DNA from: Octopus vulgaris
Taxonomy: Eukaryota
Length of the DNA: 64,000 nucleotides
Assembly (NCBI GenBank): GCA_951406725.2
Contig: OX597842.1
Location: 28,458,001-28,522,000 of the forward strand
Reading direction: 5' to 3'
The translations under genes were made by a program, and so were the position numbers. Under the pieces are notes generated by a model that saw nothing but the letters and a program-made list of their open reading frames with translations, did not search any database and was not told the origin of the DNA. This document shows positions 4,629 to 54,495 of the stretch, piece by piece. Every line of letters starts with the position of its first letter. Position 1 is the first letter of the stretch.

Positions 4629-6977
<2,349 letters not shown>

Positions 6978-15105: not shown

Positions 15106-15188
15106 ATGGATGTAGATAAGATTATAAGCAAGATTCGGAATGGGGACTTTAAAGATGTGAAACGATTTATAAAAAAAATCCTGAAACT
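15106..15188 (+). CDS. Exon 1 (coding), ankyrin N-cap [24 protein letters not shown](NPET)
   Basis: Pyrimidine tract and AAG acceptor just before the ATG, GTAAGT donor at 15189. It is 83 nt, one short of phase 0; one extra A in the A8 run gives FIKKNPET|VNQ. Confidence 0.7.
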
Positions 15189-19152: not shown

Positions 19153-20909
19153 TTGATATATTTTATATATCTTCTCTTTCTTCTCTTCAGGTCAACCAAA
19201 TAAATTCATACAGTCAAACCTTCTTAATGGTGGCTTGTGGACAGGGCAGCACAAGTCTAATAGCCTTCTTGATAGAATCTGGAGCCAATATGGACATGAG
19301 TGACAAAGACAAGAATACAGCATTGCATTATGCTGTGGAGAAGTAAGGCTTGAATTAATTAAAATCTTCAGATCTGCTTTTGTTTTGAAATTTTTTGCAA
19401 TTCCAGACAAATTGAATATCCAAAGATACCATAATAGTGGCAGTGTGACACGATAACAACATGATAGTAGTAACCAAATAACATCTTTTTCTCATTTTCT
19501 CCATGAATCCTCTTCATTGAATCACAAAAATCTTTTTCGTTATTTTTGTCAAAACAGATATGATTAGTATGGTGCGTTACACCACCACCAGTGGCCAGGT
19601 TGTCACTCATCTGTCTCGCTTTATGACTACGAAGATGACTCGTGAGTCATCCTATACATACATACATATCATTATATATATAACAAAGTATGGAGATATT
19701 CTTTGAGAGCCAACAGTTCTTAAGATTGACCCATTGTGATTCAGTGCCTTCTCTTCATATTGATTATGGAGAGATCGATCAATTTTTCTCCAAAGAAAAT
19801 GTTATTTGAGATCTAAAGCAACAAGAAAGATTCTCTAGCTTGTTTTGACAGTAAATAATCTGTAAATTTCTTACAGAAATTATTTCTCACCTCCATCTGC
19901 AACTCACTCAACACATTTTGAGATCTATTATATTTTGAATTGTGCTTCATAAGGTCATCTCTGGACAATAAAACATGTTTTGAAGTTCTTATTAGTTTCT
20001 ATAGGTTCTGCAGTCGCAAATTGTTCCAGAATTTTGCACAAACACACACACACCATCATTGTCATCGAATGTTCCTTTTCCATGCTGGCATGGGTGGGAA
20101 GGTTTGATAGGAACAGACAAGTCAGAAGACCACACCAAACACTACTGTCTGCTTAGGTTTGGTTTCTATGGCTGGACGACCTTCCTAACACCAACCACTT
20201 TGCAGAGTGTACTGGATGCCTTTTACATGCCATCCAAACCAGTGAGGTCACCAGTTAATTGCGAGACAAAGACCTCTCGACTGGTTGAGGTGGTGAGGTG
20301 GGGGAGCTAATATTGCTGGAGAGAAAGGTGTCTTGCATTAGAAGAGGGACATGGCTCCTTCAGATGGAGAAGACAGAGGAGGGAAACACTAGGTTAAAAT
20401 CTAGTGTTTGGCCCAAGCAAAGAAAAAAGGAAAAAAAATAGTGCAATAGGTGTGAAACAACATGTAGTAAACGAATATGAAAAAAAAAAATATGGCGAAC
20501 GGGAGGTGGGGAGACGACTCGGAAAATTCAAATCTCACCACTTCCCCGTTCGTCGGCGAATTTTTTGTTCTTCATTTTCGTATTTTACACATTATTTTAC
20601 ACCCGGTACTCTACTTTTGTTCAATTTTTGTGACGGGGCGGGTGGGTGGGGTGCGGACTCGGATGATTCACACGATCCGGTAACCCCACTCGACAACCGG
20701 TCCCAAAAATGAAAACAAAAAGTGTAACAGGTGTAAAACAACATGTAGTTTTCGGATCCTGTGAGATTGATCGTGTGAATTTTCCGAGTCGTCTCCACCG
20801 CCCCTCGTTCGCCAACGTTTTTTTTTTTTACTTATTCTTTTTATATTTTATTTTACACCTATTGCACAATTTTTTTTGCTCGAGTCAAACACTGGAGTTT
20901 AACTTATAA

Positions 20910-21677: not shown

Positions 21678-22756
21678 ATATATATATATAAATATATATA
21701 TATATGCGTGCATATGTATAGGCATACCTACACAACTGGGCCCCACGACGAATTTGTTTCCTTATAACTTTGAGACAAATTGATATTTTTTAATGAAATT
21801 TCTTTGACAAAAATGCTTCAGATGATGAAGATTCCAATTATATCGGAAATTGTTGTAAAAACAAATTTTCAAACGTTGAGGAGTTGACTTTCTCAAAATT
21901 CACCCAAATCCGTTTTGTTTTTCTATAACTTTCAGAAAAGTGGATATTTTGTTTCTGTGAAAATTTCTACAAATCCCTTTCAAATGGTGTAGATTAGGAT
22001 TATATCGGAATTTAACATGAAAAAACTTTAAAAATTTGATGGTTTCACACACATACATACTGACACACATCACGGTTATTTTCCCAAAATTCATCTTTTT
22101 ATTTTCTGGTTTGTGTCAGTGTATATCTGTGCGAATCCACCAATTTTTAAAACATTCTTCATATTAAATTCCGATATAATCGAAATCTTCACCATCTGAA
22201 ACGGTTTTATTGAAAATTTCATTTGAAAATATCTATTTTTTTGGAAAGAAAGCCGACTCGGGTGAACTTTCCTAAATTTCTCTCTCCACCCACCGAAAAG
22301 GTTTTTCTCACAACAAATTCCGATATAATTGGAATATTTGCCATCTGAAGGATATTTGTGAAAGAAATTTCATTGAAAAACATCCAATTTTCTAGAAGTT
22401 ACAAGGAAACATTCGTCTGGGGCACATTTGTGTAGGTTTGCCTCTACATACATATTTGCATATATATATATATATACACACACGAGGCTGTAGTATACAT
22501 AGGTTTTTATGCATTTACTGGAACACGAGTGTATATTTAATGTAATTATTAAGTGAATGTGATGTTTTATGTTTGTTTTTTTTCCTTTCAGCCACAAAAC
22601 TGATGTTGTGGCCTCCTTAGTCTCCAGTGGAGCAAATGTTAATAAGCAGAACTCATGCGGCAACACACCTCTACATCGGGCTGTGAGGAATAACTATAAA
22701 GATGTAGTCAAAGTCCTGTTAAAAAGCAAAGAAAATAACAATTTACAGGTCAGCGA

Positions 22757-22796
<40 letters not shown>

Positions 22797-25700
22797 ATAA
22801 TGATATGTATGTTGGTTTGTGTTATATGTATATGAAACAGTTTATATTTATATGTTTTTAATTAAAAACTTTTCTTCAGCTCACAGACCTGTACATACAT
22901 ACACAAATATACACACACATAAACGCATATATACACAAAAATGCATAAACAAATGATCAGTGAAGATATAAAACACGTATGTATATATAGGTATTTATGT
23001 ATATATGTATGTGCGAGAGTGTATATATATATATGCATACACATATGTGTGTGTGTATAGATACATTATAAATCTCATTTATTTTCCCCTCACCTTCATT
23101 CCACCTGTTTAAATTAATCTGATTCTGTTTCTCTGACATTTTTCATTTTTTTCCTTCTTCCCACAATAAACACCATCTTTAATGTCTTTATTGTTTTTAG
23201 GTTAATCAGGGAAATAATTTTAGTGCAACAGCTCTCCATCTTGCCTGTCTCTATGGACAAATAAACATTGTTGAACTTCTCCTGCAACAGAATGGCATCG
23301 ATGTTAATGCTGTGGAGAACAAAGGTTGGACAGCTCTCCATTTTGCCTGTCAGGAAGGACATACGGACGTTGTTGAACTTCTCCTGCAACAGAATGGCAT
23401 CGATGTTAATGCTGTGGAGAACAAAGTTTGGACAGCTCTCCATGTTGCCTGTCAGGAAGGACATACGGACGTTGTTGAACTTCTCCTGCAACACAATGGC
23501 ATCGATGTTAATGCTGTGACGGAAAATGGTTGGACAGCTCTCCATGTTGCCTGTCAATATGGACATACGGACGTTGTTGAACTTCTCCTGCAACAGAATG
23601 GCTCTGACATCTGTGCTGTGACCAATCATGGTTTCACCCCTCTTCATATTGCCTCTATTCATGGACGCACGGAAGTTATTGAACTTCTCCTGCAACAGAA
23701 TGGCATCGATGCCAATAAGGTGGACGAATTCGGTGACACCCCTCTCCATTGGGCAGTTCGAAAGTAAGTCCCCAATGGATTTGGATTATCCAAATCTGTT
23801 TCTTTAATCTTTGTTTTCTTGTTTCGAGTCATTCATGTCATAATCCCACCATGGGTCGTCATGCTTCACCCCTCTCTCTCTCTCTCTCTCTCTCACTCTA
23901 ATGACACTGTAATCTAACTTCATTAATTAATCATCATAATTGTTGTTGTTGTTGTTGTTACCTGACTGGATTCTTTACTTCATCTCATCCTTCGTTACCT
24001 CAACGTTACAGGTTCAAATCCTCTCCCTTCTTCCTTTCATTCCATGTAAAACACCTCACCCTCCCCCCTCTCTTGAAATTTTCCTCTTTCCTCTGGCCCT
24101 GGGCTAAATGCAGAATCATCCCCTTACTTTGATCCGTTTGTGTTCCAAGTTCAACTGCTGGGCTCAAAATCTGTACCAGTAATATCCAGGGGTTCATTTA
24201 ATAGATTGTCCTCCCTCTTTACTCCTGTTCTTGTGTCTGATTACTGTTGGAAAATATTCAGATAAAATTTACAAGTGTTGATATCTGGACGGTTTCCTAG
24301 TCTTCTGATTGTTTACGGAATATGTGGTGTAATTTTTAATTATGTATCTTATGCAAATAACCTACATCTTCTTTACACTGGTTATGGTAAATCTGGGTTT
24401 TGAGTTTATACCCTTCTTAGAAATTTTATCTCAATATTTCCCAACCTTTGCCTTTTATTAACCCTTACCTTTTTCTACCCTTTTAGGCCCCTCTTTTTTG
24501 TATATTACGAATTACCCTTCCGACCCCTTTCGTTGTATTAACAATTAATATTATCTTAATTTTAATGATTCTTAATACTATTTTAGTTAACAGTATGTAT
24601 GTGTATGTTGTTGGCATCGTTTTTGTGCTCGTGCAAATGTATATGCATGTGTTTGAGAGAGAGAGAGAGAGTGTGTGTGTGTGTGTGTCGTTTGTATGTG
24701 TGTGTACGCTTATATATTAATTACTATGTGCTTGTGCAAATGTATATGCATGTGTTTGAGAGAGAGAGAGGGAGTGTGTGTGTGTGTCGTTTGTATGTGT
24801 GTGTACGCTTATATATTAATTACTATGTGCTTGTGCAAATGTATATGCATGTGTTTGAGAGAGAGAGGGAGTGTGTGTGGGTGTCGTTTGTATGTGTGTG
24901 TACGCTTATATATTAATAACTATGTGCTTGTGCAAATGTATATGCATGTGTTTGAGAGAGAGAGAGGGAGTGTGTGTGGGTGTCGTTTGTATGTGTGTGT
25001 ACGCTTATATATTAATTACTATGTGCTTGTGCAAATGTATATGCATGTGTTTGAGAGAGAGAGAGTGTGTGTGTGTGTGTCGTTTGTATGTGTGTGTACG
25101 CTTATATATTAATTACTATGTGCTTGTGCAAATGTATATGCATGTGTTTGAGAGAGAGAGAGAGAGAGAGTGTGTGTGTCGTTTGTATGTGTGTGTACGC
25201 TTATATATTAATTACTATGTGCTTGTGCAAATGTATATGCATGTGTTTGAGAGAGAGAGAGAGTGTGTGTGTGTGTGTGTCGTTTGTATGTGTGTGTACG
25301 CTTATATATTAATTACTATGTGCTTGTGCAAATGTATATGCATGTGTTTGAGAGAGAGAGTGTGTGTGTGTGTGTGTGTGTGTCGTTTGTATGTGTGTGT
25401 ACGCTTATATATTAATTACTATGTGCTTGTGCAAATGTATATGCATGTGTTTGAGAGAGAGAGTGTGTGTGTGTGTGTGTGTGTGTCGTTTGTGTGTGTG
25501 TGTACGCTTATATATTAATTACTATGTGCTTGTGCAAATGTATATGCATGTGTTTGAGAGAGAGAGAGAGAGAGTGTGTGTGTGTGTGTCGTTTGTATGT
25601 GTGTGTACGCTTATATATTAATTACTATGTGCTTGTGCAAATGTATATGCATGTGTTTGAGAGAGAGAGAGAGATAGTGTGTGTGTGTGTGTCGTTTGTA

Positions 25701-25960
25701 TGTGTGTGTACGCTTATATATTAATTACTATGTGCTTGTGCAAATGTATATGCATGTGTTTGAGAGAGAGAGAGAGTGTGTGTGTGTGTGTCGTTTGTAT
25801 GTGTGTGTACGCTTATATATTAATTACTATGTGCTTGTGCAAATGTATATGCATGTGTTTGAGAGAGAGAGAGAGAGAGTGTGTGTGTGTGTGTCGTTTG
25901 TATGTGTGTGTACGCTTATATATTAATTACTATGTGCTTGTGCAAATGTATATGCATGTG

Positions 25961-25994
<34 letters not shown>

Positions 25995-28900
25995 TGTGTG
26001 TGTGTCGTTTGTATGTGTGTGTACGCTTATATATTAATTACTATGTGCTTGTGCAAATGTATGTGCATGTGTTTGAGAGAGAGAGAGAGAGAGAGTGTGT
26101 GTGTGTGTGTCGTTTGTATGTGTGTGTACGCTTATATATTAATTACTATGTGCTTGTGCAAATGTATATGAATGTGTTTGAGAGAGAGAGAGAGAGAGAG
26201 AGGTGTGTGTGTGTGTCGTTTGTATGTGTGTGTACGCTTATATATTAATTACTATGTGCTTGTGCAAATGTATATGCATGTGTTTGAGAGAGAGAGAGAG
26301 AGAGAGTGTGTGTGTGTGTCGTTTGTATGTGTGTGTACGCTTATATATTAATTACTATGTGCTTGTGCAAATGTATATGCATGTGTTTGAGAGAGAGAGA
26401 GAGAGTGTGTGTGTGTGTCGTTTGTATGTGTGTGTACGCTTATATATTAATTACTATGTGCTTGTGCAAATGTATATGCATGTGTTTGAGAGAGAGAGAG
26501 AGAGAGAGAGAGTGTGTGTGTGTGTCGTTTGTATGTGTGTGTACGCTTATATATTAATTACTATGTGCTTGTGCAAATGTATATGCATGTGTTTGAGAGA
26601 GAGAGAGAGAGAGAGAGTGTGTGTGTGTGTCGTGCGTCTGCTATATTTCTTTATCAATATCGATCACGCAGCAATGTTGGGATTTCATTGGTTAAAATTC
26701 GACGATGCTGGGATTTCATTGGTTAAAATTCGAAGATCCTGGGATTTCATTGGTTAAAATTCTTAAAATAGAGAGGAGGGAGATAGTTAATGGAGAGGGG
26801 AGAAGGTATCGGGGTTCGAGATCAGCGCCTAAACGGTAATGAAACAAGGTTATCTTAGCTGCACATTTCTGAAATCCAAGTTTATCATCCGAAGCAAAGC
26901 AATGAGGAATCGAGTGGAGGCAGGAACCGAGCAAACACTGGTTTATATAGAGATTAGGGGTTTTTCGGGGGGAGGGGGACGATTGGCGTGTTACATAGAA
27001 GAGGGGGAAAGAGAGAGAGAGAAGGGAGGCCCCACGAGGGAGAAATCTCTATGGCAGGACGAGGTTCGAAATAGAAAAAAAACTTAATGAAACAGGAAAT
27101 GCCGAAAACGCGAGGCAGGCTTATATATATAAATATATATATGCGTCCATATGTATAGGCATACCTACACAACTGGGCCCCACAACGAATTTTCTTCCTT
27201 ATAACTTTTAGACAAATTGATATTTTTTAATGAAATTTCTTTGACAAAAATGCTTCAGATGATGAAGATTCCAGTTATATCGGAAATTGTTGTAAAAACA
27301 AATTTTCAAACGTTGAGGAGTTGACTTTCTCAAAATTCACCCAAATCCGTTTGGTTTTTCTATAACTTTCAGAAAAGTGGATATTTTGTTTCTGTGAAAA
27401 TTTCTACAAATCCCTTTCAAATGGTGTAGATTAGGATTATATCGGAATTTAACATGAAAAAACTTTAAAAATTTGATGGTTTCGCACACATACATACTGA
27501 CACACATCACGGTTATTTTCCCAAAGTTCATCTTTTTATTTTCTGTTTTGTGTCAGTGTATATCTGTGCGAATCCACCAATTTTTATAATTTTCTTCATA
27601 TTAAATTCCGATATAATCGAAATCTTCACCATCTGAAACGGTTTTATTGAAAATTTCATTTGAAAATATCTATTTTTTTGGAAAGAAAGCCGACTCGGGT
27701 GAACTTTCCTAAATTTCTCTCTCCACCCACCGAAAAGGTTTTTCTCACAACAAATTCCGATATAATTGGAATATTTGCCATCTGAAGGATATTTGTGAAA
27801 GAAATTTCATTGAAAAACATCCATTTTTCTAGAAGTTACAAGGAAACATTCGCCTGGGGCACATTTGTGTAGGTTTGCCTCTACATACATATTTGCATAT
27901 ATATTTATATATATACACACACGAGGCTGTAGTATACATAGGTTTTTATGCATTTAATGGAACACGAGTGTATATTTGATGTAATTATTAAGTGAATGTG
28001 ATGTTTTATGTTTGTTTTTCTTCCTTTCAGCCACAAAACTGATGCTGTGGCCTTCTTAGTCTCCAGTGGAGCAAATGTTAATAAGCAGAACTCAAGGGGC
28101 GACACACCTCTACATCTGGCTGTGTTGAATAACTATGAAGATGTAGTCAAAGTCCTGTTAAATAGCAAAGAAAATAACAATTTACAGGTCAGTGAATATA
28201 TATATATATGTGTGTGTGTGTGTATAATGATATGTATGTTGGTTTGTGTTGTATGTATATGAAACAGTTTATATTTATATTTTTTTAATTAAAAACTTTT
28301 CTTCAGCTCACACAGACCTGTACATACATACACAAATATACACACACATAAACGCATATATACACAAAAATGCATAAACAAATGATCAGTGAAGATATAA
28401 AACACGTATGTATATATAGGTATTTATGTATATATGTATGTGCGAGAGTGTATATATATATATATGCATACACGTGTGTGTGTGTGTATAGATACATTAT
28501 AAATCTCATTTATTTTCCCCCCACCTTCATTCCACCTGTTTAAATTAATCTGATTCTGTTTTTCTGACATTTTTCATTTTTTCCTTCTTCCCCCAATAAA
28601 CACCATCTTTAATGTCTTTATTGTTTATCTTTTTTAGGTTAATCAGCAAAATAATTTGGGTTGGACAGCTCTCCATGTTGCCTGTCTCTATGGACAAACA
28701 AACATTGTTGAACTTCTCCTGCAACAGAATGGCACTGACATCTGTGCTGTGACCAAGCAAGGTTTCACCCCTCTTCATATTGCATCTCTTCATGGACGCA
28801 CGGAAGTTGTTGATTTTCTCCTGCAACAGAATGGCATCGATGCCAATAAGGTGGACGAAGACGGTGACACCCCTCTCCATCTGGCAGTTCTAAAGTAAGT

Positions 28901-30039
28901 CCCCAATGGATTTGGATTATCCAAATCTGTTTCTTTAATCTTTGTTTTCTTGTTTCGAGTCATTCATGTCATAATCCCACCATGGGTCGTCATGCTTCAC
29001 CCCTCTCTCTCTCTCTCTCTCACTCTAATGACACTGTAATCTAACTTCATTAATTAATCATCATAATTATTGTTGTTGTTGTTGTTACCTGACTGGATTC
29101 TTTACTTCATCTCATCCTTCGTTACCTCAACGTTACAGGTTCAAATCCTCTCCCTTCTTCCTTTCATTCCATGTAAAACACCTCACCCCCCTCTCTTGAA
29201 ATTTTCCTCTTTCCTCTGGCCCTGGGCTAAATGCAGAATCATCCCCTTACTTTGATCCGTTTGTGTTCCAAGTTCAACTGCTGGGCTCAAAATCTGTACC
29301 AGTAATATCCAGGGGTTCATTTAATAAATTGTCCCCCCTCTTTACTCCTGTTCTTGTGTCTGATTACTGTTGGAAAATATTCAGATAAAATTTACAAGTG
29401 TTGATATCTGGACGGTTTCCTAGTCTTCTGATTGTTTACGGAATATGTGGTGTAATTTTTAATTATGTATCTTATGCAAATAACCTACATCTTCTTTACA
29501 CTGGTTATGGTAAATCTGGGTTTTGAGTTTATACCCTTCTTATAAATTTTATCTCAATATTTTCCAACCTTTGCCTTTTATTAACCCTTACCTTTTTCTA
29601 CCCTTTTAGGCCCCTCTTTTTTTGTATATTACGAATTACCCTTCCAACCCCTTTCGTTGTATTAACAATTAATATTATCTTAATTTTAATGATTCTTAAT
29701 ACTATTTTAGTTAACAGTATGTATGTGTATGTATATATATACATATATGTGTGGGTGGTTGTTTTCAGGTATATGTATTTGTTTATATATGTATATATAT
29801 TTGTAAAAAAGAGGTTTGAAAACGCTACTATATTCGATAAATTTTAATTTTCTTATGAATTTTACATGTTTCGGTTCCTTTACTTATTGTATCTATTACT
29901 CATTGATGTGCATTGTTTTGTTCTGTACTATTATGTTTGACCTTGATGTTCATATGTAGTTGGTTAATAAATTATGTGATTGGGTATTATCTGGTAGTTG
30001 ATTATTGATTAAGGTGTATTTCTCCATTTTCTTATTTTG

Positions 30040-30930: not shown

Positions 30931-33900
30931 ATATATATATATATATATGTATGTGTGTATATATATATATGTATGTATGTGTATATATATATATATGTAT
31001 GTATGTGTATATATATGTATGTATGTGTGTGTATACATATATATATATACATATACATACATACACACATGTATAATATGTATATGTGTGTAAGTAATTA
31101 TTGATGTAATTAGGTTGTAATGACCCAATTACATTTGTTTTAATTAATCTGATTATAATTATTTTTTTCCTTTCCTCTTTCTATAACTTTCAGGCAACAC
31201 CATGATGTGGTGGCTTCAATGCTGGCCCAGGTTAGTTAACAAATACATAATTATATCCTGTCTTTAATATTCAATATTAATATCATCAAAATACCAGTGA
31301 AATTCTGCTGGGTGGGTTTAATCAACTTCACTGCAGCAGCCTTTAAACGGCAGGTCTTGGGTCTGTGAAGAATAATTATATTGGTGATAACAATGATGAC
31401 AGTAGTAGTGGTGTTGACAGTCCAACTGACCACCACTGCTGACAGTACTATCTTCAATGGTCAGACAAAACAAGGTCGTTATGAATTCAACCCATATATA
31501 TCAGATTATATATACTATCATCATCATCATCATCATCATCATCTTTTAATATCGCTCTGTCATGTTGTATGTGTGTGTGATATGTTATATATGTACATTG
31601 TTGGTGTCGGCATTTTATCTTGTGTCCAATAATTTATTTGGCTTCTTTTGGCTACTTTTTCCCCTCTGTACTGTATAAATGTCATGTATGTATATATATT
31701 ATATATATCATATCAAATATCTATGTATGTATATATATATATGTATGTATATGTTTATGTACACACAGAGTTATTCGTACCAGACACATTGCATGCTGAG
31801 ATTATGCAGCAGAGAAAAGTTAAAAGTCCTTGTCCCCAGCAACAAAGCTAAATGAGGGTACGCTGCACTCAGTCCCTATTGCTTCGTTAATCCATTACCA
31901 TCAATACATGATGAATCAACTTCCCTTGTCCTCTCCCTACCTAATTCAACGGATTAACTACCCTTACTGTATTTGTCTACCTACCTTATTTACCTGTATT
32001 TGTATTAACATTGCATTGCATGAATGCCAGGATGCGGCACCCTCCACTGCTGGTGGTGACAATACCTGATTAACTCCTATTTACAGGTGTCCATAAACAA
32101 CCTTTTCAGATGCTGATAGCTGCAGTCAATGTAGGCACAGCAACAATCATCTCGTCCTATGCGCTCCTCCCCACACACACACAGACAACTGGGTCTGCCA
32201 AATGAACTGAAGGGCTACTTCTATGACACTCTTCTGCTGGCCACTTCAAAGATAAATGACTGTGACCTTATCTTCGTGGCCAGTGATTTCAATGGATATG
32301 TTGGGCAGCACCGAGGTATCTTCCATGGGGGACGCAGATTTGGTTCCTGAAATGAGGGGAGTGCAAGGCTACTGGAGTTCTGTGGTGCAAATGACCAAAT
32401 AATCGCAACACTTGCTTCAGAAAGCTGGCCAGCCACTTGATAACCTATAAATCCAAGGTACACGCTCACCAAACTGACTACATTCTCACCCAAAAGCAGG
32501 ATTCATGTCTGCTCATAAATGCAAAGGCCTTCAATAGAGAAGAATGTAGCCCACAGCATAGGTTACTCATTAGGGAGTTCAAGCTACTGGCTTGAAGGAT
32601 TCCAAGAAGCAAGCCAGTTTGGAAAGAAGAGTATGGAAGCTGAAGGAACCTTCAATTAGTCAGAAGTTTAGTGATGTCCTAAATGAAGCATATAATGGGA
32701 AGGAGGAGGAATTTCAGACTTGCAGCATTGAGGATAAGTGGAAGTTCCAATGGGACAACTTGCTGAGAGTTTCAGACCAAATTTGTGGCTGGTGCAATGT
32801 CCCAGCCAGGCATAGGGTGATGTGGTGGTGGAAAAGGGTAATTGACAGGGACAAGGATGGGAAGGGTAGTGGCAGCTGGGAGTTGTATCTGGCAGTTAGA
32901 AAGGAAGCTAGGAAGCAGGTATACTCAGCCATGAGTGAAGCAGAAAGGAAGAAGTTTGCCAATGTCTTGCAATGTGAGGAGCAGAGATTTGAAGTGTTTT
33001 GGCTTGCCAAGGAAAATTGTGATGTTGTGGGAGAGAAGTGTGTTCACATGGATGATGGCTCCGTTGCAGTTAGTGACTCTGCAAAGAAATAGGCTTGGAA
33101 GTGCCACTATGAAAGGCTCCTAAATGTAGAGAACGCGTGAGAGAAGGAGAGGCTGTCTAAAGTGGATCCAAGAGATCTGTTTGTTTTTTTAGTTGTTCGA
33201 AGAAAAGTTCATTTCTATGTTTTCATTTCTCATTGTGTTCGTTTTTTTATGTCTTGTACCCATATATGCATGTATATATATATATATATGTAGGTATGTA
33301 CATATATTTATGTAAATATGCATATATTTATATATTATATATATATATATATATATATTTTCAGTGGCAATTTTGATTGTTATATGAATGTGTGTGTGTG
33401 TGTATATATATGTGTGTGTGTGTGTGCATGTTACATCCATAACGTTAATATATTTATACATCTATATGTACAGTGATGTAAGGATGTGGACACTAACCAA
33501 CTCCCCCGTTTTATGGATCCCTTATTAACATAGCAACATGAAAGGCTTACATTAAGTATATAATTCGTCTTTACTAGACTTGATCTGCTAATTATATTTT
33601 CACTCTTGTTCTAGTCCCCTAAAACATACTATATAGTGAGGGATAAATGAAGATGAGGCTGAAACAATCTGTTTATGACATCTTAATAGATTTATCATGT
33701 CCCTAACAAATATCCATAGCGTGTTATAGAGGGACCTTACAGAAGGTTGACTACACTAACAAACATCAAATGTACATGATCAGGTTGATCAAGTACCCAG
33801 TAGAAGACAGCAATGTCACATCCACCCTAATTTTCATGTACATTTTCAATTTCTATTTTTACTTCCACAAAGGATTCAGTGAAACTGGATATTGCGAACA

Positions 33901-36900
33901 ATGATAAAAGAACACCCTTACTGGAAGCCGTGTCTGCAGCCCACATCGGAATAGTCCACAAACTAATCACGTGCGGTGCAAATATGAATGCCATCGACAA
34001 GGATGGCAATAATTGTTTGCATATTGCAGCAGAGAAAGAGGAATTTTGTTCTGAGAAGGAACATATTACCATTTTAGATGAGGTAAGTTTTTAAATTGAT
34101 TGTGAATGTGTGTGTGTGGTTGGCATTAGATAGGGCATCCAACCACAGAAACCATGCCAAAACTGGCAATTGGACCCTGAGCTGCTCTGCAGTTGGCCAG
34201 CCCTTGCTGAACCATTGAACCCACACCAGCATGGAAAATGGACATTAAATGATGATGAGGAGGATGAGTAGAAGTGTGAGCTTGTGTGTGTGTGTGTAAG
34301 ATAAAGAGAGAGAAATAGAGAAACGGGCAGACATTGCTTGCCATGTCTATTCACTCCCATCCACCTCTCTTCCATTAGTATTAAGTAATCCAGTCAATCC
34401 AGATAACCCTAGTTATATTATGTAACTAACTATATTCCATCTCCTTTCACCCTCGAAGGCATGCTCTCTCCCCTGTAAAGGAGGTAACCCATCTTGTTGG
34501 CTATATAAACACAGCCATCACAGTGTGAAGGAAAGGTGACCAATGACAAAGAGGAGACATTCCCAAATAACAATGAAACAGGGAGGAGGAGAGGTCTGTG
34601 GGACATGATAGACGATAACCTTTATAATGCTGGTGCCATGATAAATGCATCCAGACCATTCTGGGAAGAATTCTTCCCGAAACGACTCTTTATCACACAT
34701 CTTGCACACAATGTGTATCCACTGGTTTCCTGTAGACATGTCATCACAATGTTGAATGTTAGAACACTAGAGAACGGATACAATGAACGAAGGTCCTTGG
34801 TGTGTTTTCCTGTATGTAGGTTGTGTATGTTCAACTACATATTTATCTGTCTCTCTCTCTCTCTCGCTCTCTTTCTATATATATATATATATATATTTAT
34901 ATATAAACAAATGCATCAACATGTATCCATCGGGAGATCTGATGGTATATATTGTCTACTGTTTCATAATTCAATCGACTCTTTGATTCCCGTATAAATA
35001 AAGGTCACTACTGATGTGTGACTCTATTTCAGACATTTGATGATCATATGTAAATTGTAGTAATGTCTACTTTGGTGAGAAGAAGCCACTCTTGCAGTCA
35101 GCTACCCACCCAACTGGAATTGTCTAACAGTTTGAGCAGTTTATTAACTATAATGTGTTGGTGTGCTGCCTCAACTGTGACACTAATTCTTACTTCCTTT
35201 ACTTCACCTTCATTATCCAAAGAAGTTTCTTTATTAATTATGGAAACGTTGTTATTTTTGGATATGTCTGTGTGGTGTTGCTTTTGTTGTTGTGTCTGTT
35301 CTAAGTATTCTCAGTTCTCATGTAACTTGTTTGCTGTCATGTTGTTGTGTTATATTTATATATACAATACTCCTCCATATTTCTTGTGTGATGGCCATTT
35401 ATGGATTCACCAAGCTAGTTGAATAGATAGTTTGGTGTGTTCTAATATTTGTGATGTTTGTTCCATTATATTCCATATATTTGACTTGATGCTATGATTT
35501 GGTTTTAAATTGTTTTTTATTGAATATCTTGTGATATTTGTGATTGGCAAATGATTATTTACGCATTAATTACCAATAAACTTGATGTTAATCAGTAATG
35601 TTTGTTCTGTTTAATATAATGACCATATATATAAAATATGTCATAATGTTGAGAATAGACTAAAAACAAATGAAAATGGGAAATGGATTCAATTAGAGAT
35701 GATGTCGGAACTTAATATTGTGCAATCAGTTTAAGCGCTGGAGATACAAACTATTTGTATACGTAGTTGAACTGTTGTGTAATTTGGGTATCTACGAAGT
35801 ATATTTGTGAAATATTGTAATCATCATTTTATACTTTGTCATTTGTAGTGCTGTGCTAAGCTTGGGTTGCCGATCGAAAAGAGGCTCTCTGGTGTAGCAG
35901 TCGCTGGCTATCTAGCCCACCAGGGGGCCAACTTGTACAGGAAAAATAATGAGAATGTATCTCCATTGGACCTCATTGAGGATGCAGATTTGAAAGAAAA
36001 ATTTAAAGAATTATTCCTGCCACAAACAGTAAGTATTCATTGGCAGTGACAGTTTATTTTCTATTTTGTATATAATCATGTTTATGTTTGTTTAATTTTA
36101 ATTCTACCAATACATTATACTGCCATAGTGTCTTGATCAAAGGCCACACAACAATAGTATGAAGAACAATAAACAAAATGCAGTTGTTATGTGATCCAAT
36201 GAAGAGCACTGTTTGGGTTGGTAGTTGTACCTCACTGTCTACCACCACCCATCTACCTTTCTTAGTTCCCTATTTTAAAGATTTGTGACCAATAAGAAAA
36301 TGTAGAACTAAACAGTGAAGTGAATGAACAGATTTTGAAGTTGTTACATAAAAACAAATGGAATTTATCTGTCTACCAACATGTTCTCTCTCTTCTCTGT
36401 TCCAATCAGTTCATTATTATGAAAGGTTTCGTAAGAAAATAAACTACACACCCAAACAGTGTGTGTATATATATCATCAACATCATTATCATCATTGCTT
36501 AACGTCCGTTTCCATCCTGGCATGAGTTGGATGGTTTGAAAGGGAGCCCGCCAGAAGTCTACACCAAACTTCTGTCTGTTTTGGCATGCCCAGCAGAGTG
36601 GACTGAGTAACACCAGCGCAGGCAAGGCCAGTTTTGGAATGGTTTTTACAGCTGGATGTCCTTCCAAATGCCAGCCACTTTACAGTGTGGACTGGATGCT
36701 TTTTATGTGGCACCAGCACTGGCAGGGTCACCAAGTGTATATACACACACACAGACACACACACATATTTCTGTTAATATTGCTAGAACACTGACACACA
36801 TCTTCACAGAATAAAATTGCCAGGAAACATAAATCGTTCTGGTAACACCTATACCATTCTTAGTCTTTTAGGCTTCTTGGTCACATTAGACTCCTGTATT

Positions 36901-39900: not shown

Positions 39901-42900
39901 AGGATGGTAAATGTTGATGTGCTTTTATGTCGCAGAAAAATTCCTCTTGTGACTGGTTTAAATCTTCACAAGCAATTTCTGAAAAGCTTGAGCAAGCATA
40001 GACCATCGCACCACCTCCAAGGTAATGAAAGAGGTCTTTGTGAAAGAAAATGTAGCCAGCCATGCTAAAAACACCATTGCACAGTAAAGAATGTGTCCAG
40101 GTTTAACAAATGAGATTGGAATCAGTACTTTTAACTTAGGAATCAAAAATAGTGAACTTTATTGCATAAACTGTGGGTATTTTTAAACAATAATTTGTAT
40201 CTCGATTTAAATCTGTCATGGTTCATGGAAGAGGATATCCTCAGACCAGTTTGCATCCCTTTTTCATCTGGTATTGAGTCATGATTTAAGGGACCTACAA
40301 TATGTAACTTCAGGTGTGTATCAGGTGGTGAATGACGAAGAGCTCAATTTATCACACCTGTCCTTATAAGAAGCTAAACAGTATGCACATAGCTCAGTAG
40401 AAGGTGAATCTAACTCGTTTGGGTTTTGATCCAATCAACTGAGGCAAATAAAATTGTTTTGGAGGAACACATCTGAAGTTGATAAGATGTAGATCAATGA
40501 ACATGGACTCACCTATAACAAGGGGCAGGTTTGTATGCAGGGCAAACCTAGACTGAAGTGTTTTGCTAAAGAACTTTACACATTGCCTTGTCCAGGAATT
40601 GAAACCGCAATTTTACTCTATGAGTCCAAAAGCCTAACAATTTAGCCATGCACCTCACTCTGGTCAGTCTGGTGTTTCATAATATTCTGTACTGTAAACA
40701 TAAAACAAACATGTAATATTTGTTAGAAATGAATGTTATAGGTGGGATGTGTTTTATGTTTTTTCCACAGATGTATGCTTTGTGAAGTGAATGAAGCCAG
40801 CATGGAGTTACAACCCTGTGCACATACTGTTTTATGTGAAGATTGTAGCAAAATTCAACTTAAAAGATGCCCCAAGTGTAAAACATGTATAGAAAGCAAA
40901 AGGAGAGTTGGTAAGAATATGATTTGATGATCTGTCTGTTTGTCACATGACATTAGGGAATGGAATAATGTTGTATCGACCCAGATCTGTCATAATCTGA
41001 CAGACGTATGATAAAAGATGTCCCAGGTGTCTTTTCTCTTTGATAGTATATCCATGACTACACCCACTGAATATTGTCTTTATCCAAGTAGGAAACCTGT
41101 CCCACATCAAAAGAGTACTGTCTGCAACATAAGACTAATACGTTTTACTGAAATATAAATGAAATATCAATAAATCTCCAAGGTCCCATCAGTAAACATC
41201 AACTTTTTATATTCAGTTGTCAGCTTTTATATGAGGTTAATGATTTATAAGTATCTTGGGAAACTGATAATTAAGGACAACAGTACTTCCTACAACATCA
41301 CAGTCAGCTTTGTAATGTAAGAATTTCAATGACAAAATCTCAACTGAGAGTTTAAGGATCTGACTCTTAGCGAGTCTTATATATTCTTGAGAATGAATTC
41401 TAGTGTCCCATTTCAGATATAACTCCTTTGCAATAATGTGTAGATAAACAGTTTTAAGTTAAGGAGGTTTTATACAAATGTAATGTTTCAGGATACCTGT
41501 TATCACTTTCTGCTCCACCTGTGTAGAACCAATCATTGCTCACCTGGAAAAAGAAAAAGCTGCTTATTAAGGAGGATGAATGACATTGAAATATCTTCAG
41601 ATCTTTCCTGAATCAGGTGGTATTCTGGTGAAGTGTGATGTGGGCAGTTAAAATTAAAGATTACCAACAGTAACATATAAAAATGAGGCTGGGGTATGTT
41701 TATCCTTCCTGAAGCAATGTGTCATGCCTTTGTGGCCAGATCTTTGAAGACCAGTTTGGTTGACACTGGAATTTAGCAGAAGATGAGAAGAATATTGGTT
41801 AGTGAAGGTTCGAGATGAGAGGACAATGGCATGTCATATGACCAGCACAGACATAACAAAGGAAAGACAAAACTAAGAGAAAAAGAGTGTTATGAAGTGA
41901 TAACTAAGTGAGAGAATTTCAGAATTGTTAGATTAGTATATAGGATGTCTTAATAGAAAGATGAGATTTAGAAAGGTTTGCCTATTTTGTTGTGGTTCTA
42001 AATATTGAACTATTATATAGTAACAGCTTAGAAAGTGTTGACCGAAAGCATAGTGGTCACCAATTGACTATTGATGATATGAATGCCTTACAAAAATGGA
42101 ATATAGATTATTAAAAGAGACAAAGAAATTTTACTATGAAGTATAAAACTTTGAAATGCTTATTTCAGTGTGTCCAAAGTCTGAAGAAAAAGCAGTCAAG
42201 ATGGTTGCAGAATCTGTTGGTGAGTATAAAATAACTGTAATTGATTTCTATAAATTTTACCTTCACCTGAGATATATTATTTGTGTGAATGACTGAGAAC
42301 AGGTTCCATTCTTAATTTCCAATTCTTATTTCAGAATGTCCAAAGTGTAAAGGAAAAGTAAAATCTTTTGGTGAGTATAAAATAACTGTAATTGATTTCT
42401 ATAAATTTTACCTTCACCTGAGATATATTATTTGTGTGAATGACTGAGAACAGGTTCCATTCTTAATTTCCAATTCTTATTTCAGAATGTCCAAAGTGTA
42501 AAGGAAAAGTAAAATCTTTTGGTGAGTATAAAATAACTGTAATAAATTTCTATAAATTTTATCTTCACCTGAAATATATTATTTGTGTGAATGACTGCGA
42601 ACAGGTTCCATTCTTAATTTCCAATTCTTATTTCAGTGTGTCCAAAGTCTGAAGAAAAAGCAGTCCAGACGGTTGCAGAATCTGTTGGTGAGTATAAAAT
42701 ATCTGTAATTGATTTCTATAAATTTTACCTTCACCTGAGATATATTATTTGTGTGAATGACTGAGAACAGGTTCTATTCTTAATTTCCAATTCTTATTTC
42801 AGTGTGTCCAAAGTCTGAAGAAAAAGCAGTCCAGACGGTTGCAGAATCTGTTGGTGAGTATAAAATAACTGTAATAAATTTCTATAAATTTTATCTTCAC

Positions 42901-43190
42901 CTGAAATATATTATTTGTGTGAATGACTGAGAACAGGTTCCATTGTTACATTTCTTTCGAATGGTTAGCGATAAAAGTAATTCTATTCGTTACCTACAAA
43001 TGCAAGAATATCCAATAAAGGGGTTTTATAGAAATATGGAAACATGAGACACAGGAAAAATGTCTTTCACGATGAGGCCAAAATACAAAAGATAAAATAT
43101 AAACCCTGAAGCTGTTCTCTCCCCATAATGAGATGCATTCACTTTTCTTTCATCTCATTGTTGTCTCTCTCTCCTTCCCTGTTTCTTCCT

Positions 43191-43228
<38 letters not shown>

Positions 43229-46200
43229 GCATCTACATGTAGCAGCCTCTGTACTTTCCAGTCGTGTAACAACATGAATTGTATTTAAAATATTGATATT
43301 ACAGAAATTTAATAAAATGTCCAGCAGTGTTGGCTCTGTTGCTAAAATGGTTAAATTAGAAAAAAAAAACAATAGAGTTAATATTGTCTTTTGAATGAAG
43401 GAAGAAAAACATTTTGTTGTTTAATGGTAAACAGGTGAGTTAATGACAGTGTTTGTTTGTTGTACATTTTCAATAAGTTTACTGATTATTGTTGTTGATG
43501 TTCTTGTTGAACAAGATGGTTAAGTTGAAAGCTTACAAGTGTGATCACCCTGTCTTCTTTTTCACTCTTAGTAAATCTATCATTACATCCATTAAACGAT
43601 GTCTTTGTCCAAGTAAGAAGCTTTGGTCTGCTGCTGAGACAATTGCTCTCTCTCTCTCTCTCTTCTCTCTCCTTAAGATGGACACTGGTTGCAAGATACA
43701 AAACAATCGATGTTATTGTCCTCATCATTTACAGTCTGCTCTCCTTGCTTCCATGTAATGGATGGGTGATCACTGTCCAAGTCAGTTCTTATTCAGAGTT
43801 ACTGTCCCCCTTGACTGCTTGAGAAACACATCTCCCTTAAACATTCCACCTTTTCTATGGTGGGATGCCCTCCCCAACACCAACCACTTCATAAAGAGTC
43901 CTGAGTACATTTTAATGTGGCACAAGCACTAGAAAGATTTTCATGTGTCCAACATTGAAACTGGAATAGCTGTAGGTTGCACACAATCAGTCACTTGGTT
44001 TGTGCTTGTTATGGGGATCGGCAGATTTATGAGAAGAAATTACTCAGGCGAAATCACCTCAGAAGACATTCATGGATGACATAAAAATGCTAACAAGAGA
44101 TCCAAAGTATATGCAATCAGTCCTAGATAGATTGGATGGACTAATTAATTGCTCAAGAATGCTGTTTGAAACAAATAATGAATGCATTCTGACATTTGTG
44201 AAAGGTCAACAGAAGCAAGTGAAGTTCAAAATAGCAGGAGAAACGATGCGAAAGGTTAAAGAGTAACTTGTAAAACGTTTTGGACTGTGGTAGACGATCT
44301 CATTGTCCGATAAGAGTAGAGGCATTGATGTCATTGAAGAAACCGAGGATGGGCAATAAGCATTTGCCAAGTCAAAACTTCTGGGCAAAAACAAGATTTG
44401 GTGCTTGAAGTTTGATCTATATCACCATCTTGATAATATATTCTTAAATATCACTTCTTTTGTACCATTTCAGATGTTTTTCCTTTGCGATAATCTGTGT
44501 ATGAACATTTGCATGTTGTTAAAGATGTTTTGTGCAAGTATACAGTGTTTTAGGATACTTGCTATCACTTTCTGTTTCACCTGTGTAGAACTAATCATTG
44601 CTCATCAGGAAAGAAAAGCATTTCATTAAGGAGTCCTTAAATATTTCCTGAATCAGATGAAATTCTGGTGAACTGTGAGTTGCATAGTTTAAAATTAAAG
44701 ATTAAAAGCAGCAACGTTTGACAAAGATAACAGGTGTGACATGAGTTTGTGTCAAGGTCGTTGATGACCAGCTTGGTTGACATCAGAATTAAGCAAAAGA
44801 TGAGGGGAATGTTGATTAAGTGAAGTCCAGTGGTGAGGGGACAATGCCATGTCATAGGTTTAGCATGGATATAAGAGAGAAGAAAGATAAAAGGTGTTAA
44901 CATGTGATCATTAAATAAGATGATTGCAACATTGTTAGATTAAGTAGGATGTCTTAATAGAAAAAGGAGGCTTAGGAAGGTCAGTCTATTTTGTTATGGA
45001 CCTAAATATTGAGCCATTATATAGGACCACTGTAGGAAGTATAAAAGTGTCAACCAAACCTATAGTGGTCAGAAGTTGTCCATTGATGATAGGAATGTCT
45101 TACAATAATAAAATATAAACCATTAACAGAGATCGGGAAATTGTGCTATGAAGTGTAAAATTTGGAAATATTTATTTCAGAGTCTGTAATGGTAGAGGAG
45201 AAGCATCTTCATAGGGTGTCCCAAAAGTTGGCAGGTAAATGGATGGAACTTGGTGAGTATAAAATACCCAATTAATTTCTATAAATTTTACTTTCAGCTA
45301 AACTTTTGTTTGTTTGAATGACTGAGAACCGGTTCCATTCCTAATTTCCAATTGAAAGTTTAGCTATAAAGTAAAGCTATCACTGAAATTTCATAAAATA
45401 TCTACAGACGTCAGCACGGTTGTAAAATGTATAAATTAGAAGGTCCAGTAGAGTTAATACTATCGTTTGTAAAAGGGGACTCAAAAATATTGTTGTTTAA
45501 GAGTAAACAGGTGAATTAATGACAATGTTTTTGCTTGTTTACACTTTTAGTAAGTTTACTAGTAGAGTGTTGTTGTTGATGTTTATTTCGGCAGATATCT
45601 GCCTTAATCTGGCAGAATTAAGGGGAAAGGGTTCCAGATGTGCCATCGCTCTTTCTCTTGGGTGAAGAGGACCACATTATCAAATGTAACCTTTTTAAAA
45701 TGAGAGTGTGCATTGTGTGGGACATGTTGTCATCTCTCCCCTGGCCAGTCTGTTTTTCTATATTTATTGTAATTCTTTAGTCCCAGGTCAACATATATTT
45801 CCTGTCTCTATAGAAGACAGGCCCCATTGTTGATTGTGTTCATGGCTGGATTGAACTCAGCATTGTAAGTTAATGAAACACTCATTTATATTAGAAAAAA
45901 AAGAATCTCAACAGAAAATTCAAACTCAACTTGATCTTGTTTCTCAATTGAAATCATTTCACTCTCCTTTACATTACAAATGTCACGTGGAAAGGCATGA
46001 ACATCACAATATCCCATTTCCCCTTCTCCGACAGTTTAACACAACATAAAATATCATTTATACAATGCTCCTATTATTTACAGCAATGTCTTCTACCTCC
46101 CTATGGTACCTATATACATCTAGATAGAGTGAAGCATAGAGAAATGTCTTTACCAGGTACATTGAGCGGTGCTGGGGATTAGATTTGAACCTTTGATCCC

Positions 46201-49138: not shown

Positions 49139-49350
49139 ATGCACTGAATGTTTATCATCAGAATTCAATTGAATTTCTTTGTAAATTGTTGTTGTTGCTT
49201 AGTCGCAAGTCTATCTTCACCACAGACCTATTATCAAATGCCTTCCATCCAGGACCATCCTGTCTTTTTCATAAGTATAGAGAACGTAGAACCACATTGT
49301 TTAATGTGTCCTTCTATAAGGTGATAAGTTATGAATGGAGTAGGATTTGG

Positions 49351-50368
49351 GGATCTTTACCTTTTGACCGGCAGATTTAGAAAATAATTTTTTTGGAACT
49401 AAACACTTTCAAACTTCGTATTCTGGTAGAATGTGTCGTATAAAACATCTTTTACTCTTAGCGTTTTTGAGAAAAGTTTATATTTACAAAGTTATTTCGT
49501 GTTAAATTTGTCGTATTTCGGTAATTTCAACCAATCAATGGCGTGTATTCATCTGAATAAAATTACTGCCGTTGTTTGTCAACAACAACTTCTGGCGGTG
49601 TATATTTCGTTTGTCACTGTTATTTATGACATATTTCATCTCAGTTATGTTTGTATGAAAAACGAGTCTATCTGAAACATGTTTACTTCATGGCACCACC
49701 AGAATCGTTCGTGCATTTCTACTGGTTTTAGTTATGTTTTTTCCTGTTTTTCAGCTACTATTTTCGCTAAGACTTTTTTAACCCTAACCCTAACACCTTA
49801 GCCCTGACACTAAAACCCTAGCCCTAACACTAAAACCTTAACTCTAACCCTAAAACCCTAACCCTAACACCTTAGCCCTGACACTAAAACCCTAGCCCTA
49901 ACACTAAAACCTTAACTCTAACCCTAAAACCCTAACCCTAACACCTTAGCCCTGACACTAAAACCTAGCCCTAACACTAAAACCTTAACTCTAACCCTAA
50001 CCCTAACACCTTAAAGCTAAAACCAGTACAAACGCACGAACGATGTCATAAATAACAACAACAAACGAAATATATACCACCAGTTGTTGTTGACAAACAT
50101 CATCATCATCATCATCCTTTAACGTCCGCTTTGCATGCTAGCATGGGTTAGCAGTAATTTTATTCAGCTGAATACACATCATTGATTGGTTGAAATTACT
50201 GAAATACGACAAATTTAACACGAAATAACTTTGTAAATATAAACTTTTCTCAAAAACGCTAAGAGTAAAAGATGTTTTATACGACACATTCTACCAGAAT
50301 ACGAAGTTTGAAAGTGTTTAGTTCCAAAAAATTATTTCCTAAATCTGCCGGTCGAAAGGTAAAGATCC
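49351..50368. mobile_element. Non-autonomous DNA transposon with ~300-bp TIRs and perfect 8-bp TSD (GGATTTGG)
   Basis: GGATCTTTACC...GGTAAAGATCC termini; TSD at 49343-49350 and 50369-50376. A diverged arm fragment lies at ~13250-13410. Confidence 0.92.
49779..50012 (+). repeat. Telomere-like (TAACCC)-derived repeat, ~68-bp higher-order unit x3
   Basis: taaccctaaccctaacaccttagccctgacactaaaaccctagcc... repeated. Confidence 0.9.

Positions 50369-52267: not shown

Positions 52268-54495
<2,228 letters not shown>

What the first reader, a model, noticed from the sequence alone, without database searches (positions are those of the whole stretch)
22592..28894. Duplicated ankyrin exons diverge almost only at amino-acid-changing sites on the binding face: signature of diversifying selection
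Seen, by hand alignment. Exon 3 vs 5: 10 nt differences giving 8 aa changes and 0 synonymous. Shared parts of exon 4 vs 6: 16 aa changes and 1 synonymous (GCC/GCA). Total ~24:1. The co-duplicated downstream introns (23764-24600 vs 28895-29720) differ at only about 1% of sites, so the exons diverged faster than their introns. Several codons have 2-3 substitutions (TGC>AGG, AGG>TTG, TTC>GAC, TGG>CTG, GCA>TGG). Many changes sit in the hairpin and first helix ([12 protein letters not shown] vs [24 protein letters not shown] vs [21 protein letters not shown] vs NLGWTALHV). Known: these are the ligand-contact positions randomised in DARPins. Inference: a natural variable-ankyrin binding surface under arms-race selection.
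Basis: partly seen in the sequence, partly recalled or inferred. Interest (0 to 1): 0.9.

Follow-up and report, generated by a model that had tools for sequence, protein, structure and literature searches.

The report
Octopus hypervariable ankyrin–RING–death-domain family
These exons belong to one of about 25 clustered octopus genes, derived from the back half of a mind bomb ubiquitin-ligase gene, whose ankyrin repeats keep changing the amino acids on their predicted binding face far faster than neighbouring introns change, so the family likely acts as a diversified set of intracellular sensors of foreign proteins.

Summary
The counts are right: E3/E5 10 nt, 8 aa, 0 synonymous; E4/E6 22 nt, 16 aa, 1 synonymous codon; flanking introns 33/2157 (1.5%). 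The pair is part of a large tandem family in an octopus genome: 30 copies of the E3-type exon, about 26 genes, 29 copies on one contig. Architecture: ankyrin(n)–RING–death domain, derived exon for exon from the 3' half of a mind bomb gene, without MIB-HERC2 domains or the second RING. Across 17–18 close units introns differ 2%, framework codons 3–4%, contact codons 33%. Site models reject neutrality (2ΔlnL 99–132, ω 17–18; null simulations with recombination ≤3.9). Selected sites are ankyrin positions 3, 5, 10, 13 (plus 1, 2, 14, 16, 17 in internal repeats), enriched for the positions randomised in designed ankyrin libraries. Corrections: the two units are not sister duplicates, 10–11 of 24 changes lie off the binding face, and the death domain is also under positive selection while the RING is not. 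Repeat number and unit number vary, and paralogues exchange sequence. The immune-sensor role, expression and ligase activity are untested. The regime matches fungal ankyrin NLRs; I found no paper on this family.

The parts
15106..15188 (+). Exon 1, N-cap with start codon; 83 nt here against 84 nt in 13 of 14 paralogues examined (one A short in an A run)
19191..19342 (+). Exon 2, ankyrin repeats, phase 0 to 2; matches a C26 mind bomb exon
21685..24608 (+). Unit 1 of the in-gene duplication (upstream intron, E3, intron, E4, downstream intron)
22592..22748 (+). E3, 157-nt ankyrin exon with hypervariable positions 1, 3, 5, 10, 13, 14; 30 copies in the genome
23201..23763 (+). E4, array of near-identical 34-aa ankyrin repeats (5.5 repeats here; 2.5 to about 9.5 in paralogues)
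24608..26630 (.). About 100-bp satellite between the two units; the same satellite lies upstream of E3-type exons in other paralogues and is the likely unequal-crossover site
27122..29732 (+). Unit 2 of the in-gene duplication
28031..28187 (+). E5, second copy of the E3-type exon
28638..28894 (+). E6, second repeat-array exon (2.5 repeats)
31194..31230 (+). E7, 37-nt ankyrin linker exon
33873..34082 (+). E8, mind bomb-type C-terminal ankyrin exon; weak selection signal
35849..36028 (+). E9, last mind bomb-type ankyrin exon; one base longer than in the five close paralogues
40771..40910 (+). RING exon (Pfam zf-C3HC4_3), homologous to the first RING of the C26 mind bomb gene; no selection signal
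42155..42954 (+). Tandem array of short exon-intron units encoding the low-complexity linker seen in public family proteins
45181..45252 (+). First death-domain exon (read by eye; matches public family proteins)
48970..49172 (+). Last exon, death domain (Pfam Death); three single-base deletions here relative to paralogues; positively selected in paralogues

Best explanation
The exons are two ankyrin modules of one member of an octopus tandem gene family that encodes ankyrin(n)–RING–death-domain proteins and shows positive selection on the predicted binding face of its ankyrin repeats and on its death domain; the family likely works as a repertoire of intracellular sensors or substrate adaptors that would bind fast-changing foreign proteins and would signal through death-domain assembly, possibly with ubiquitylation. 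Shown: architecture, origin from the 3' half of a mind bomb gene, copy number, site-specific selection, variable repeat and unit number, sequence exchange among paralogues. Inferred: binding on the concave face, a pathogen as the driver, death-domain signalling, ligase activity. Diversity is generated by point substitutions at a few codons, kept by selection, and recombined by conversion and unequal crossing-over at three levels: tract, 34-aa repeat and exon-pair unit.
For: Family: 30 E3-type copies, 29 on C29; matching E1, E8, E9, RING and death-domain exons at gene-like spacing; public Octopus proteins with Ank + zf-C3HC4_3 + Death. Tree-free: 136 pairs of 17 close units, intron p 0.018-0.024, E3 framework pS 0.028 and pN 0.036, contact pN 0.33; 6 of 18 contact nucleotide columns carry 3-4 alleles against 7 of 1390 intron columns, while codons 4, 6, 7, 8, 9, 11 between them are invariant in 18 of 18 units. 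Site models (my own GY94 code): E3, 18 units, M2a vs M1a 2ΔlnL 132 (intron tree) and 99 (exon tree), ω 17-18; all 30 units 116 and 103 under two frequency models, M8 vs M8a 115; 40 internal repeats 118, ω 6.9, sites 1,2,3,5,10,13,14,16,17; 17 repeats of a second subfamily 29, sites 1,5,13,14; 8 of 8 null simulations with free recombination gave 3.9 or less. Positions 2,3,5,10,13,33 are the randomised concave-face positions of the ANK-N5C library (PMC4308713); enrichment p = 0.0008 (E3) and 0.002 (internal repeats). Death domain: 14 copies, 2ΔlnL 52, ω 5.1; RING: 6 copies, p = 0.78. Exchange: incompatibility falls with proximity over the whole unit (p = 0.0002), and a death-domain tract is shared between otherwise different copies. 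Same regime in fungal NLR ankyrin repeats (PMC4986451, PMC13449251). Human MIB2 acts on RIPK1 and cFLIP death signalling (PMC7815719). Only 2 NACHT matches of 25 candidates in this genome, a lower bound.
Against: No ligand, tissue, induction or population data. The family keeps the RING that matches the first RING of the C26 gene and lacks the terminal one; in human MIB2 the second RING is the one needed for cFLIP ubiquitylation (PMC7815719), so ligase activity is doubtful. Selection is not confined to the binding face (framework-only 2ΔlnL 20.5, helix-2 sites 19 and 22 of the preceding repeat), and selection on the death domain is not what a simple 'variable sensor, constant effector' model predicts. 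One isolated member is identical over 137 of 137 aa to a protein labelled O. sinensis, so not all copies are changing now. The window's gene carries five single-base indels relative to paralogues and other copies carry stops or frameshifts. Distance decay of incompatibility was not significant in introns alone (p = 0.18) or in E3 alone (p = 0.63). The RING control has only 6 sequences.
Confidence: 0.55

Rival explanations
1. Same selection, but the driver is inside the genome: the proteins would be adaptors that track fast-evolving host or selfish-element proteins (transposon proteins, the expanded C2H2 zinc-finger proteins, germ-line drive factors).
For: All sequence signatures fit equally well. 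Selection on the death domain fits co-evolution among host partners. The region is rich in retroelements and holds a zinc-finger-like array.
Against: A death domain and a parent gene tied to RIPK1/cFLIP signalling (PMC7815719) point to cell-death or immune output; the closest documented analogues are non-self receptors (PMC4986451).
Confidence: 0.2
2. Sub-functionalised signalling code: paralogues diversified to give non-cross-reacting ankyrin and death-domain surfaces for cell-type-specific (for example neuronal or developmental) signalling, with no antagonist involved.
For: Both interaction domains diversify while the RING does not; mind bomb genes are developmental regulators (established knowledge); one member is unchanged between two species labels.
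Against: Young near-equidistant copies (2% intron divergence), variable repeat and unit number, and broken copies fit birth-and-death turnover better than a fixed code. The same few residues recur in both subfamilies.
Confidence: 0.13
3. No positive selection: relaxed or pseudogenising copies plus gene conversion, local hypermutation or multi-nucleotide mutation produce the pattern.
For: M0 ω of framework codons is 1.3; indels and stops occur in several copies, including this one; exchange among paralogues is real; recombination is known to inflate site tests.
Against: Neutral drift cannot lift single columns to 3-4 alleles when introns differ 2%; synonymous sites between the variable codons are invariant; null simulations with recombination stay at or below 3.9 against 99-132 observed; the more distant subfamily offers no more divergent donor codons in this stretch.
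Confidence: 0.07
4. Assembly artefact: two haplotypes or mis-joined paralogues placed in tandem, or consensus errors.
For: Intron divergence of the pair (1.5%) is near the 1.22% heterozygosity published for O. vulgaris (PMC10700109); single-base indels in A runs suggest consensus errors; no reads could be laid.
Against: 18 near-equidistant units cannot be two haplotypes; three other genes have two units, with at least two other junctions, and one shares the window's satellite junction; variant codons recur in frame in many copies and in proteins labelled O. sinensis. Even a mosaic join would leave the family-wide selection result intact.
Confidence: 0.05

Closest known systems
Fungal NLRs with high-internal-conservation ankyrin, TPR or WD40 repeats (Podospora HNWD genes, Pa_3_8560; PMC4986451, PMC13449251, passages read)
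   Same: Near-identical repeats, repeat-number variation, exchange between paralogues, a few positively selected positions on the concave ankyrin face, joined to a cell-death-type domain.
   Different: No NACHT or NB-ARC domain; repeats are N-terminal; RING plus C-terminal death domain; animal; variation seen here between paralogues, not yet between individuals.
Mind bomb 2-type RING E3 ligases (C26 gene of this genome; human MIB2, PMC7815719)
   Same: C-terminal ankyrin repeats and first RING match exon for exon (32-53% identity, shared intron phases). Databases label members 'MIB2-like'.
   Different: No MIB-HERC2 domains (none on C29), no second RING, an expanded 34-aa repeat array, an added death domain, about 26 copies under positive selection.
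Designed ankyrin repeat proteins (DARPins, ANK-N5C library; PMC4308713, passages read)
   Same: Constant scaffold with variable positions 2, 3, 5, 10, 13; best fold-search hits of the model are DARPins.
   Different: Natural; internal repeats are 34 aa; positions 1, 14, 16, 17 also vary; position 33/34 hardly varies.
Rapidly evolving ubiquitin-ligase adaptor families (nematode and plant F-box and MATH-BTB, vertebrate TRIM clusters; recalled, no call)
   Same: Clustered, birth-and-death, selected substrate-binding domain beside a conserved ligase module.
   Different: Ankyrin recognition module, death domain, mind bomb origin; ligase activity unproven.
ANKDD1A/B ankyrin-death-domain proteins (feature-level Atlas hits, score 0.90)
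   Same: Ankyrin repeats with a C-terminal death domain.
   Different: No RING in those clusters' listed families; a lead only, no homology test done.

Membership tests
Mind bomb (MIB1/MIB2) E3 ligases | N-terminal MIB-HERC2 / ZZ region | tested here: not met
   PF06701 matches on C26, C13, C16, C9, C4, none on C29; full-length member P0011 has none
Mind bomb (MIB1/MIB2) E3 ligases | Mind bomb-type C-terminal ankyrin repeats and first RING, with shared introns | tested here: met
   tblastn and exon boundaries against the C26 gene; one continuous match to MIB1 structure 8v0e
Mind bomb (MIB1/MIB2) E3 ligases | Terminal second RING | tested here: not met
   C26 gene has it; the window gene and most public members show one RING, then linker and death domain. 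One O. bimaculoides protein (P0023) has two RING stretches
Mind bomb (MIB1/MIB2) E3 ligases | Ubiquitin-ligase activity | not testable with these tools
   Eight zinc ligands are present in the RING exon; activity needs an assay
NLR / STAND receptors | NACHT or NB-ARC ATPase domain | tested here: not met
   Pfam scans of 9 full or near-full public members found none; genome NACHT matches lie on C17 and C19
HIC-repeat variable sensors (working analogy) | Near-identical repeats with repeat-number variation | tested here: met
   2.5 to about 9.5 repeats per array exon among paralogues; no Psim computed
HIC-repeat variable sensors (working analogy) | Positive selection at concave-face positions | tested here: met
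   positions taken from PMC4308713, not from atomic contacts of a model
HIC-repeat variable sensors (working analogy) | Exchange between paralogues | tested here: met
   whole-unit distance decay p = 0.0002 and shared tract in the death-domain exon; not significant in introns alone or E3 alone
HIC-repeat variable sensors (working analogy) | Polymorphism and balancing selection among individuals | not tested
   no reads were laid
HIC-repeat variable sensors (working analogy) | Non-self-triggered cell death or signalling | not testable with these tools
   needs experiments
Diversity-generating retroelement or other targeted hypermutation | Region-wide or adenine-specific mutagenesis that also hits synonymous sites | tested here: not met
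   changes start from non-A bases too and neighbouring synonymous sites are invariant

The most novel reading that the evidence does not exclude
Octopuses have built a germ-line 'natural DARPin library' from a mind bomb gene: dozens of ankyrin–RING–death-domain proteins whose binding face and death-domain surfaces are both diversified and reshuffled by conversion, serving as an ATPase-free intracellular non-self receptor system in an animal with very few NACHT genes.
Probability: 0.35. Interest if true: 0.9.

Novelty: new variant of a known kind. Interest (0 to 1): 0.74.

Why it matters
How cephalopods detect intracellular pathogens is poorly known, and this genome gave only two NACHT matches. 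This family is a concrete candidate receptor repertoire, hidden under automatic labels such as 'MIB2-like' and 'ankyrin-3-like', with named residues to test. It extends a diversification regime documented in fungal NLRs to an animal family of different architecture and traceable origin, and shows natural selection picking much the same positions that engineers randomise in ankyrin libraries. It also bears on disease in octopus aquaculture.

Tried and rejected
One search listed 20 runs holding part of the stretch, none on record as RNA: no RNA holder listed, not used as evidence. The whole-library profile search was swamped by long ankyrin proteins and says nothing on family range. The Atlas search gave ankyrin-RING and ankyrin-death clusters as leads only, all structural TM below 0.5. 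The AlphaFold model of paralogue P0002 (7-sequence alignment) was confident for the ankyrin part and weak for residues 238-363 (mean pLDDT 70), so it was not used to map contacts or to judge the RING; its fold search returned ankyrin arrays. Synonymous identity of the E3 core between subfamilies (0 of 10 four-fold sites against about 10-14% in most of the upstream intron) suggests conversion across subfamilies but is too small a sample. Distance decay in introns alone (p = 0.18) and E3 alone (p = 0.63) was not significant. The NEB list for the RING was ignored because the test was not significant. Earlier-findings look-ups returned nothing. No complex prediction was sent, as no partner is known. 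Rejected: targeted hypermutation, pure relaxation, two-haplotype artefact, membership of MIB2 proper or of NLRs.
Full report
1. Observation. The block 21685-24608 is repeated at 27122-29732. E3 and E5 differ at 10 nt, giving 8 amino-acid changes and no synonymous one. E6 is 306 nt (three 34-aa repeats) shorter than E4; at the best in-frame breakpoint the shared parts differ at 22 nt, 16 amino acids and one synonymous codon. The three co-duplicated introns differ at 18/892, 9/440 and 6/825 sites. Non-synonymous sites exceed the intron rate (p = 4e-11) and synonymous sites do not (p = 0.19); the pair's own dN/dS test is borderline (p = 0.025-0.077). 13 of 24 changes lie on ankyrin positions 2, 3, 5, 10, 13, 14 (23 of 137 codons, p = 2e-6).

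2. The gene. Exons run from 15106 to about 49172: N-cap, ankyrin exons E2-E9, a RING exon, a tandem array of short linker exons and two death-domain exons. Pfam gives zf-C3HC4_3 for the RING exon and Death for the last exon. Public proteins with the same exons are labelled Octopus vulgaris, O. sinensis and O. bimaculoides and carry Ank + RING + Death; all 7, 18 and 8 hits of the three searches were Octopus, but those searches need shared exact words, so the range is not settled. Several O. vulgaris-labelled proteins match G000 units by eye, which gives the species. The window copy has five single-base indels against its paralogues: one in the A run of exon 1, one at the end of E9 and three in the death-domain exon. 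The exon-1 shift occurs only in 2 of the 15 copies examined, both with an uninterrupted A run, which is typical of long-read consensus error (general knowledge), but a young pseudogene is not excluded.

3. The family. G000 (2.8 Gb) has 31 matches to E3; I fetched the best 30, 29 on C29 and one on C27. Pairing coordinates with E1, E8, E9, RING and death-domain matches gives about 26 genes, four with two exon-pair units; more distant relatives lie on C31, C10, C1 and others. All counts are lower bounds. The array exon holds 2.5 to about 9.5 repeats. Some copies carry a stop or frameshifts (L008, L016, L023, L028). The three other two-unit genes show at least two other junctions; one shares the window's satellite junction, and that satellite also lies upstream of E3-type exons elsewhere, so unequal crossing-over between paralogues is the likely origin of unit 2. 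On the intron tree the window's two units are not sisters (a fast tree without support values), and 12 of their 16 variant E3 codons occur in at least one of the 28 other units, 10 of them in seven or more.

4. Selection. In 136 pairs of 17 close units (frameshifted L016 left out) introns differ 1.8-2.4%, E3 framework codons have pS 0.028 and pN 0.036, and contact codons pN 0.33. In 18 units, 6 of 18 contact nucleotide columns have three or four alleles against 7 of 1390 intron columns, while codons 4, 6, 7, 8, 9 and 11 are invariant. This argues against regional hypermutation and multi-nucleotide mutation. With my own GY94 implementation (not codeml; naive empirical Bayes), M2a beats M1a by 132 on the intron tree and 99 on the exon tree, ω 17-18, with sites 3, 5, 10, 13 and position 19 of the preceding repeat on both trees. 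For all 30 units the values are 116 and 103, and M8 vs M8a 115. Forty distinct internal repeats from 17 close units (first repeat of each skipped) give 118, ω 6.9, sites 1, 2, 3, 5, 10, 13, 14, 16, 17; 17 distinct repeats from 6 units of a second subfamily give 29, sites 1, 5, 13, 14. Eight of eight simulations without positive selection but with a new tree every two codons gave 3.9 or less (branch lengths scaled, not fully optimised). The ANK-N5C library randomises positions 2, 3, 5, 10, 13, 33, which form the concave binding surface in its crystal structure (PMC4308713, passages); selected sites are enriched in that set (p = 0.0008 and 0.002). Against a binding-face-only reading: framework codons alone still give 20.5.

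5. Controls in the same genes. RING, 6 of 10 copies: no signal (p = 0.78). E8, 9 of 21 copies: weak (15.0). Death-domain exon, 14 of 30 copies: strong (52, ω 5.1; flanks 1.1-4.4%, pS 0.080, pN 0.141). So both interaction domains diversify. In the model of P0002 the selected death-domain sites fall at helix ends and loops; that these are assembly surfaces is my inference from recalled death-fold structures.

6. Exchange. Site incompatibility is 0.51 overall and 0.31 within 25 nt across whole units (p = 0.0002), with smaller effects in the array exon, E8 and the death domain, where a short tract is shared between otherwise different copies. It was not significant in introns alone or E3 alone. 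The same few codons recur in both subfamilies with almost no synonymous differences, which fits short conversions or recurrent change.

7. Origin. MIB-HERC2 domains map to C26, C13 and three other contigs, not C29. Downstream exons of the C26 gene match E2, E3, E8, E9 and the RING exon at 32-53% identity with the same intron phases where boundaries could be read; the C13 gene matches only generically. I call the C26 gene MIB2-type from the database labels of the family and its two RINGs; no tree was built. The family keeps the first RING and lacks the terminal one; human MIB2 needs the second RING to ubiquitylate cFLIP and regulates RIPK1 death-domain signalling (PMC7815719, abstract and passages).

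8. Mechanism. Most likely (0.55): a cytoplasmic repertoire in which variable ankyrin arrays bind foreign proteins and the death domain relays the signal, with ubiquitylation possible but doubtful. The selection itself I put at about 0.9. Rivals: conflict with selfish elements or host partners (0.2), a signalling code (0.13), no selection (0.07), artefact (0.05).

9. What is known. Fungal NLRs with near-identical ankyrin, TPR or WD40 repeats show repeat-number variation, exchange and selection on the concave face (PMC4986451 and PMC13449251, passages). This family works like them in how it diversifies but is not an NLR, and it descends from but is not a mind bomb ligase. Only 2 of 25 NACHT candidates scored in G000 (lower bound). 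Not in print as far as I could see: nine searches on the family or its regime (listings and abstract starts only) showed no paper on it; PMC9068888 has no hit for ankyrin, MIB2, mind bomb, death domain or ubiquitin, PMC10700109 none for ankyrin or MIB2, PMC4199593 none for mib or NLR (term searches of main texts). Supplements were not opened, the 2015 O. bimaculoides genome paper was not held, and subscription journals are not covered, so a mention in gene-family tables may exist.

10. Verdict. Real, larger than reported, and apparently undescribed: a new variant of variable-repeat recognition proteins. Interest 0.74.

Noticed in passing
G000:C9:9565801-9586214: About 50 tandem copies, roughly 262 bp apart, of a piece resembling exon E8 of this family; a family exon turned satellite, or a tandem exon array.
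   Followed up: no
window 42155-42954: Tandem short exon-intron units for the linker between RING and death domain; public isoforms differ in how many they use.
   Followed up: partly
G000:C1:216930136-216964471: About ten tandem matches, about 3.5 kb apart, to exon E9: another amplified relative.
   Followed up: no
window 21685-22480 and 27122-27920: The intron upstream of E3 is an imperfect inverted repeat of about 800 bp (72% arms), probably an old non-autonomous transposon, present upstream of most E3-type exons.
   Followed up: partly
L017 (G000:C29:21213525-21216681): Isolated family member identical over 137 of 137 aa to a protein labelled O. sinensis.
   Followed up: partly
L094, L095: Two RING exons with an 18-nt in-frame deletion that removes zinc ligands.
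   Followed up: no
window 53361-54070: 84-bp tandem repeats that look like a C2H2 zinc-finger array on the minus strand (read by eye).
   Followed up: no
window 5030-7000: LINE-type reverse-transcriptase copy, with further fragments elsewhere in the window (read by eye).
   Followed up: no
window 49780-50010: Short degenerate telomere-like repeat inside an inverted-repeat element just after the last exon.
   Followed up: no
L156 (C17), L157 (C19): The only two NACHT matches; L157 reads like an NLR with C-terminal leucine-rich repeats (by eye).
   Followed up: partly
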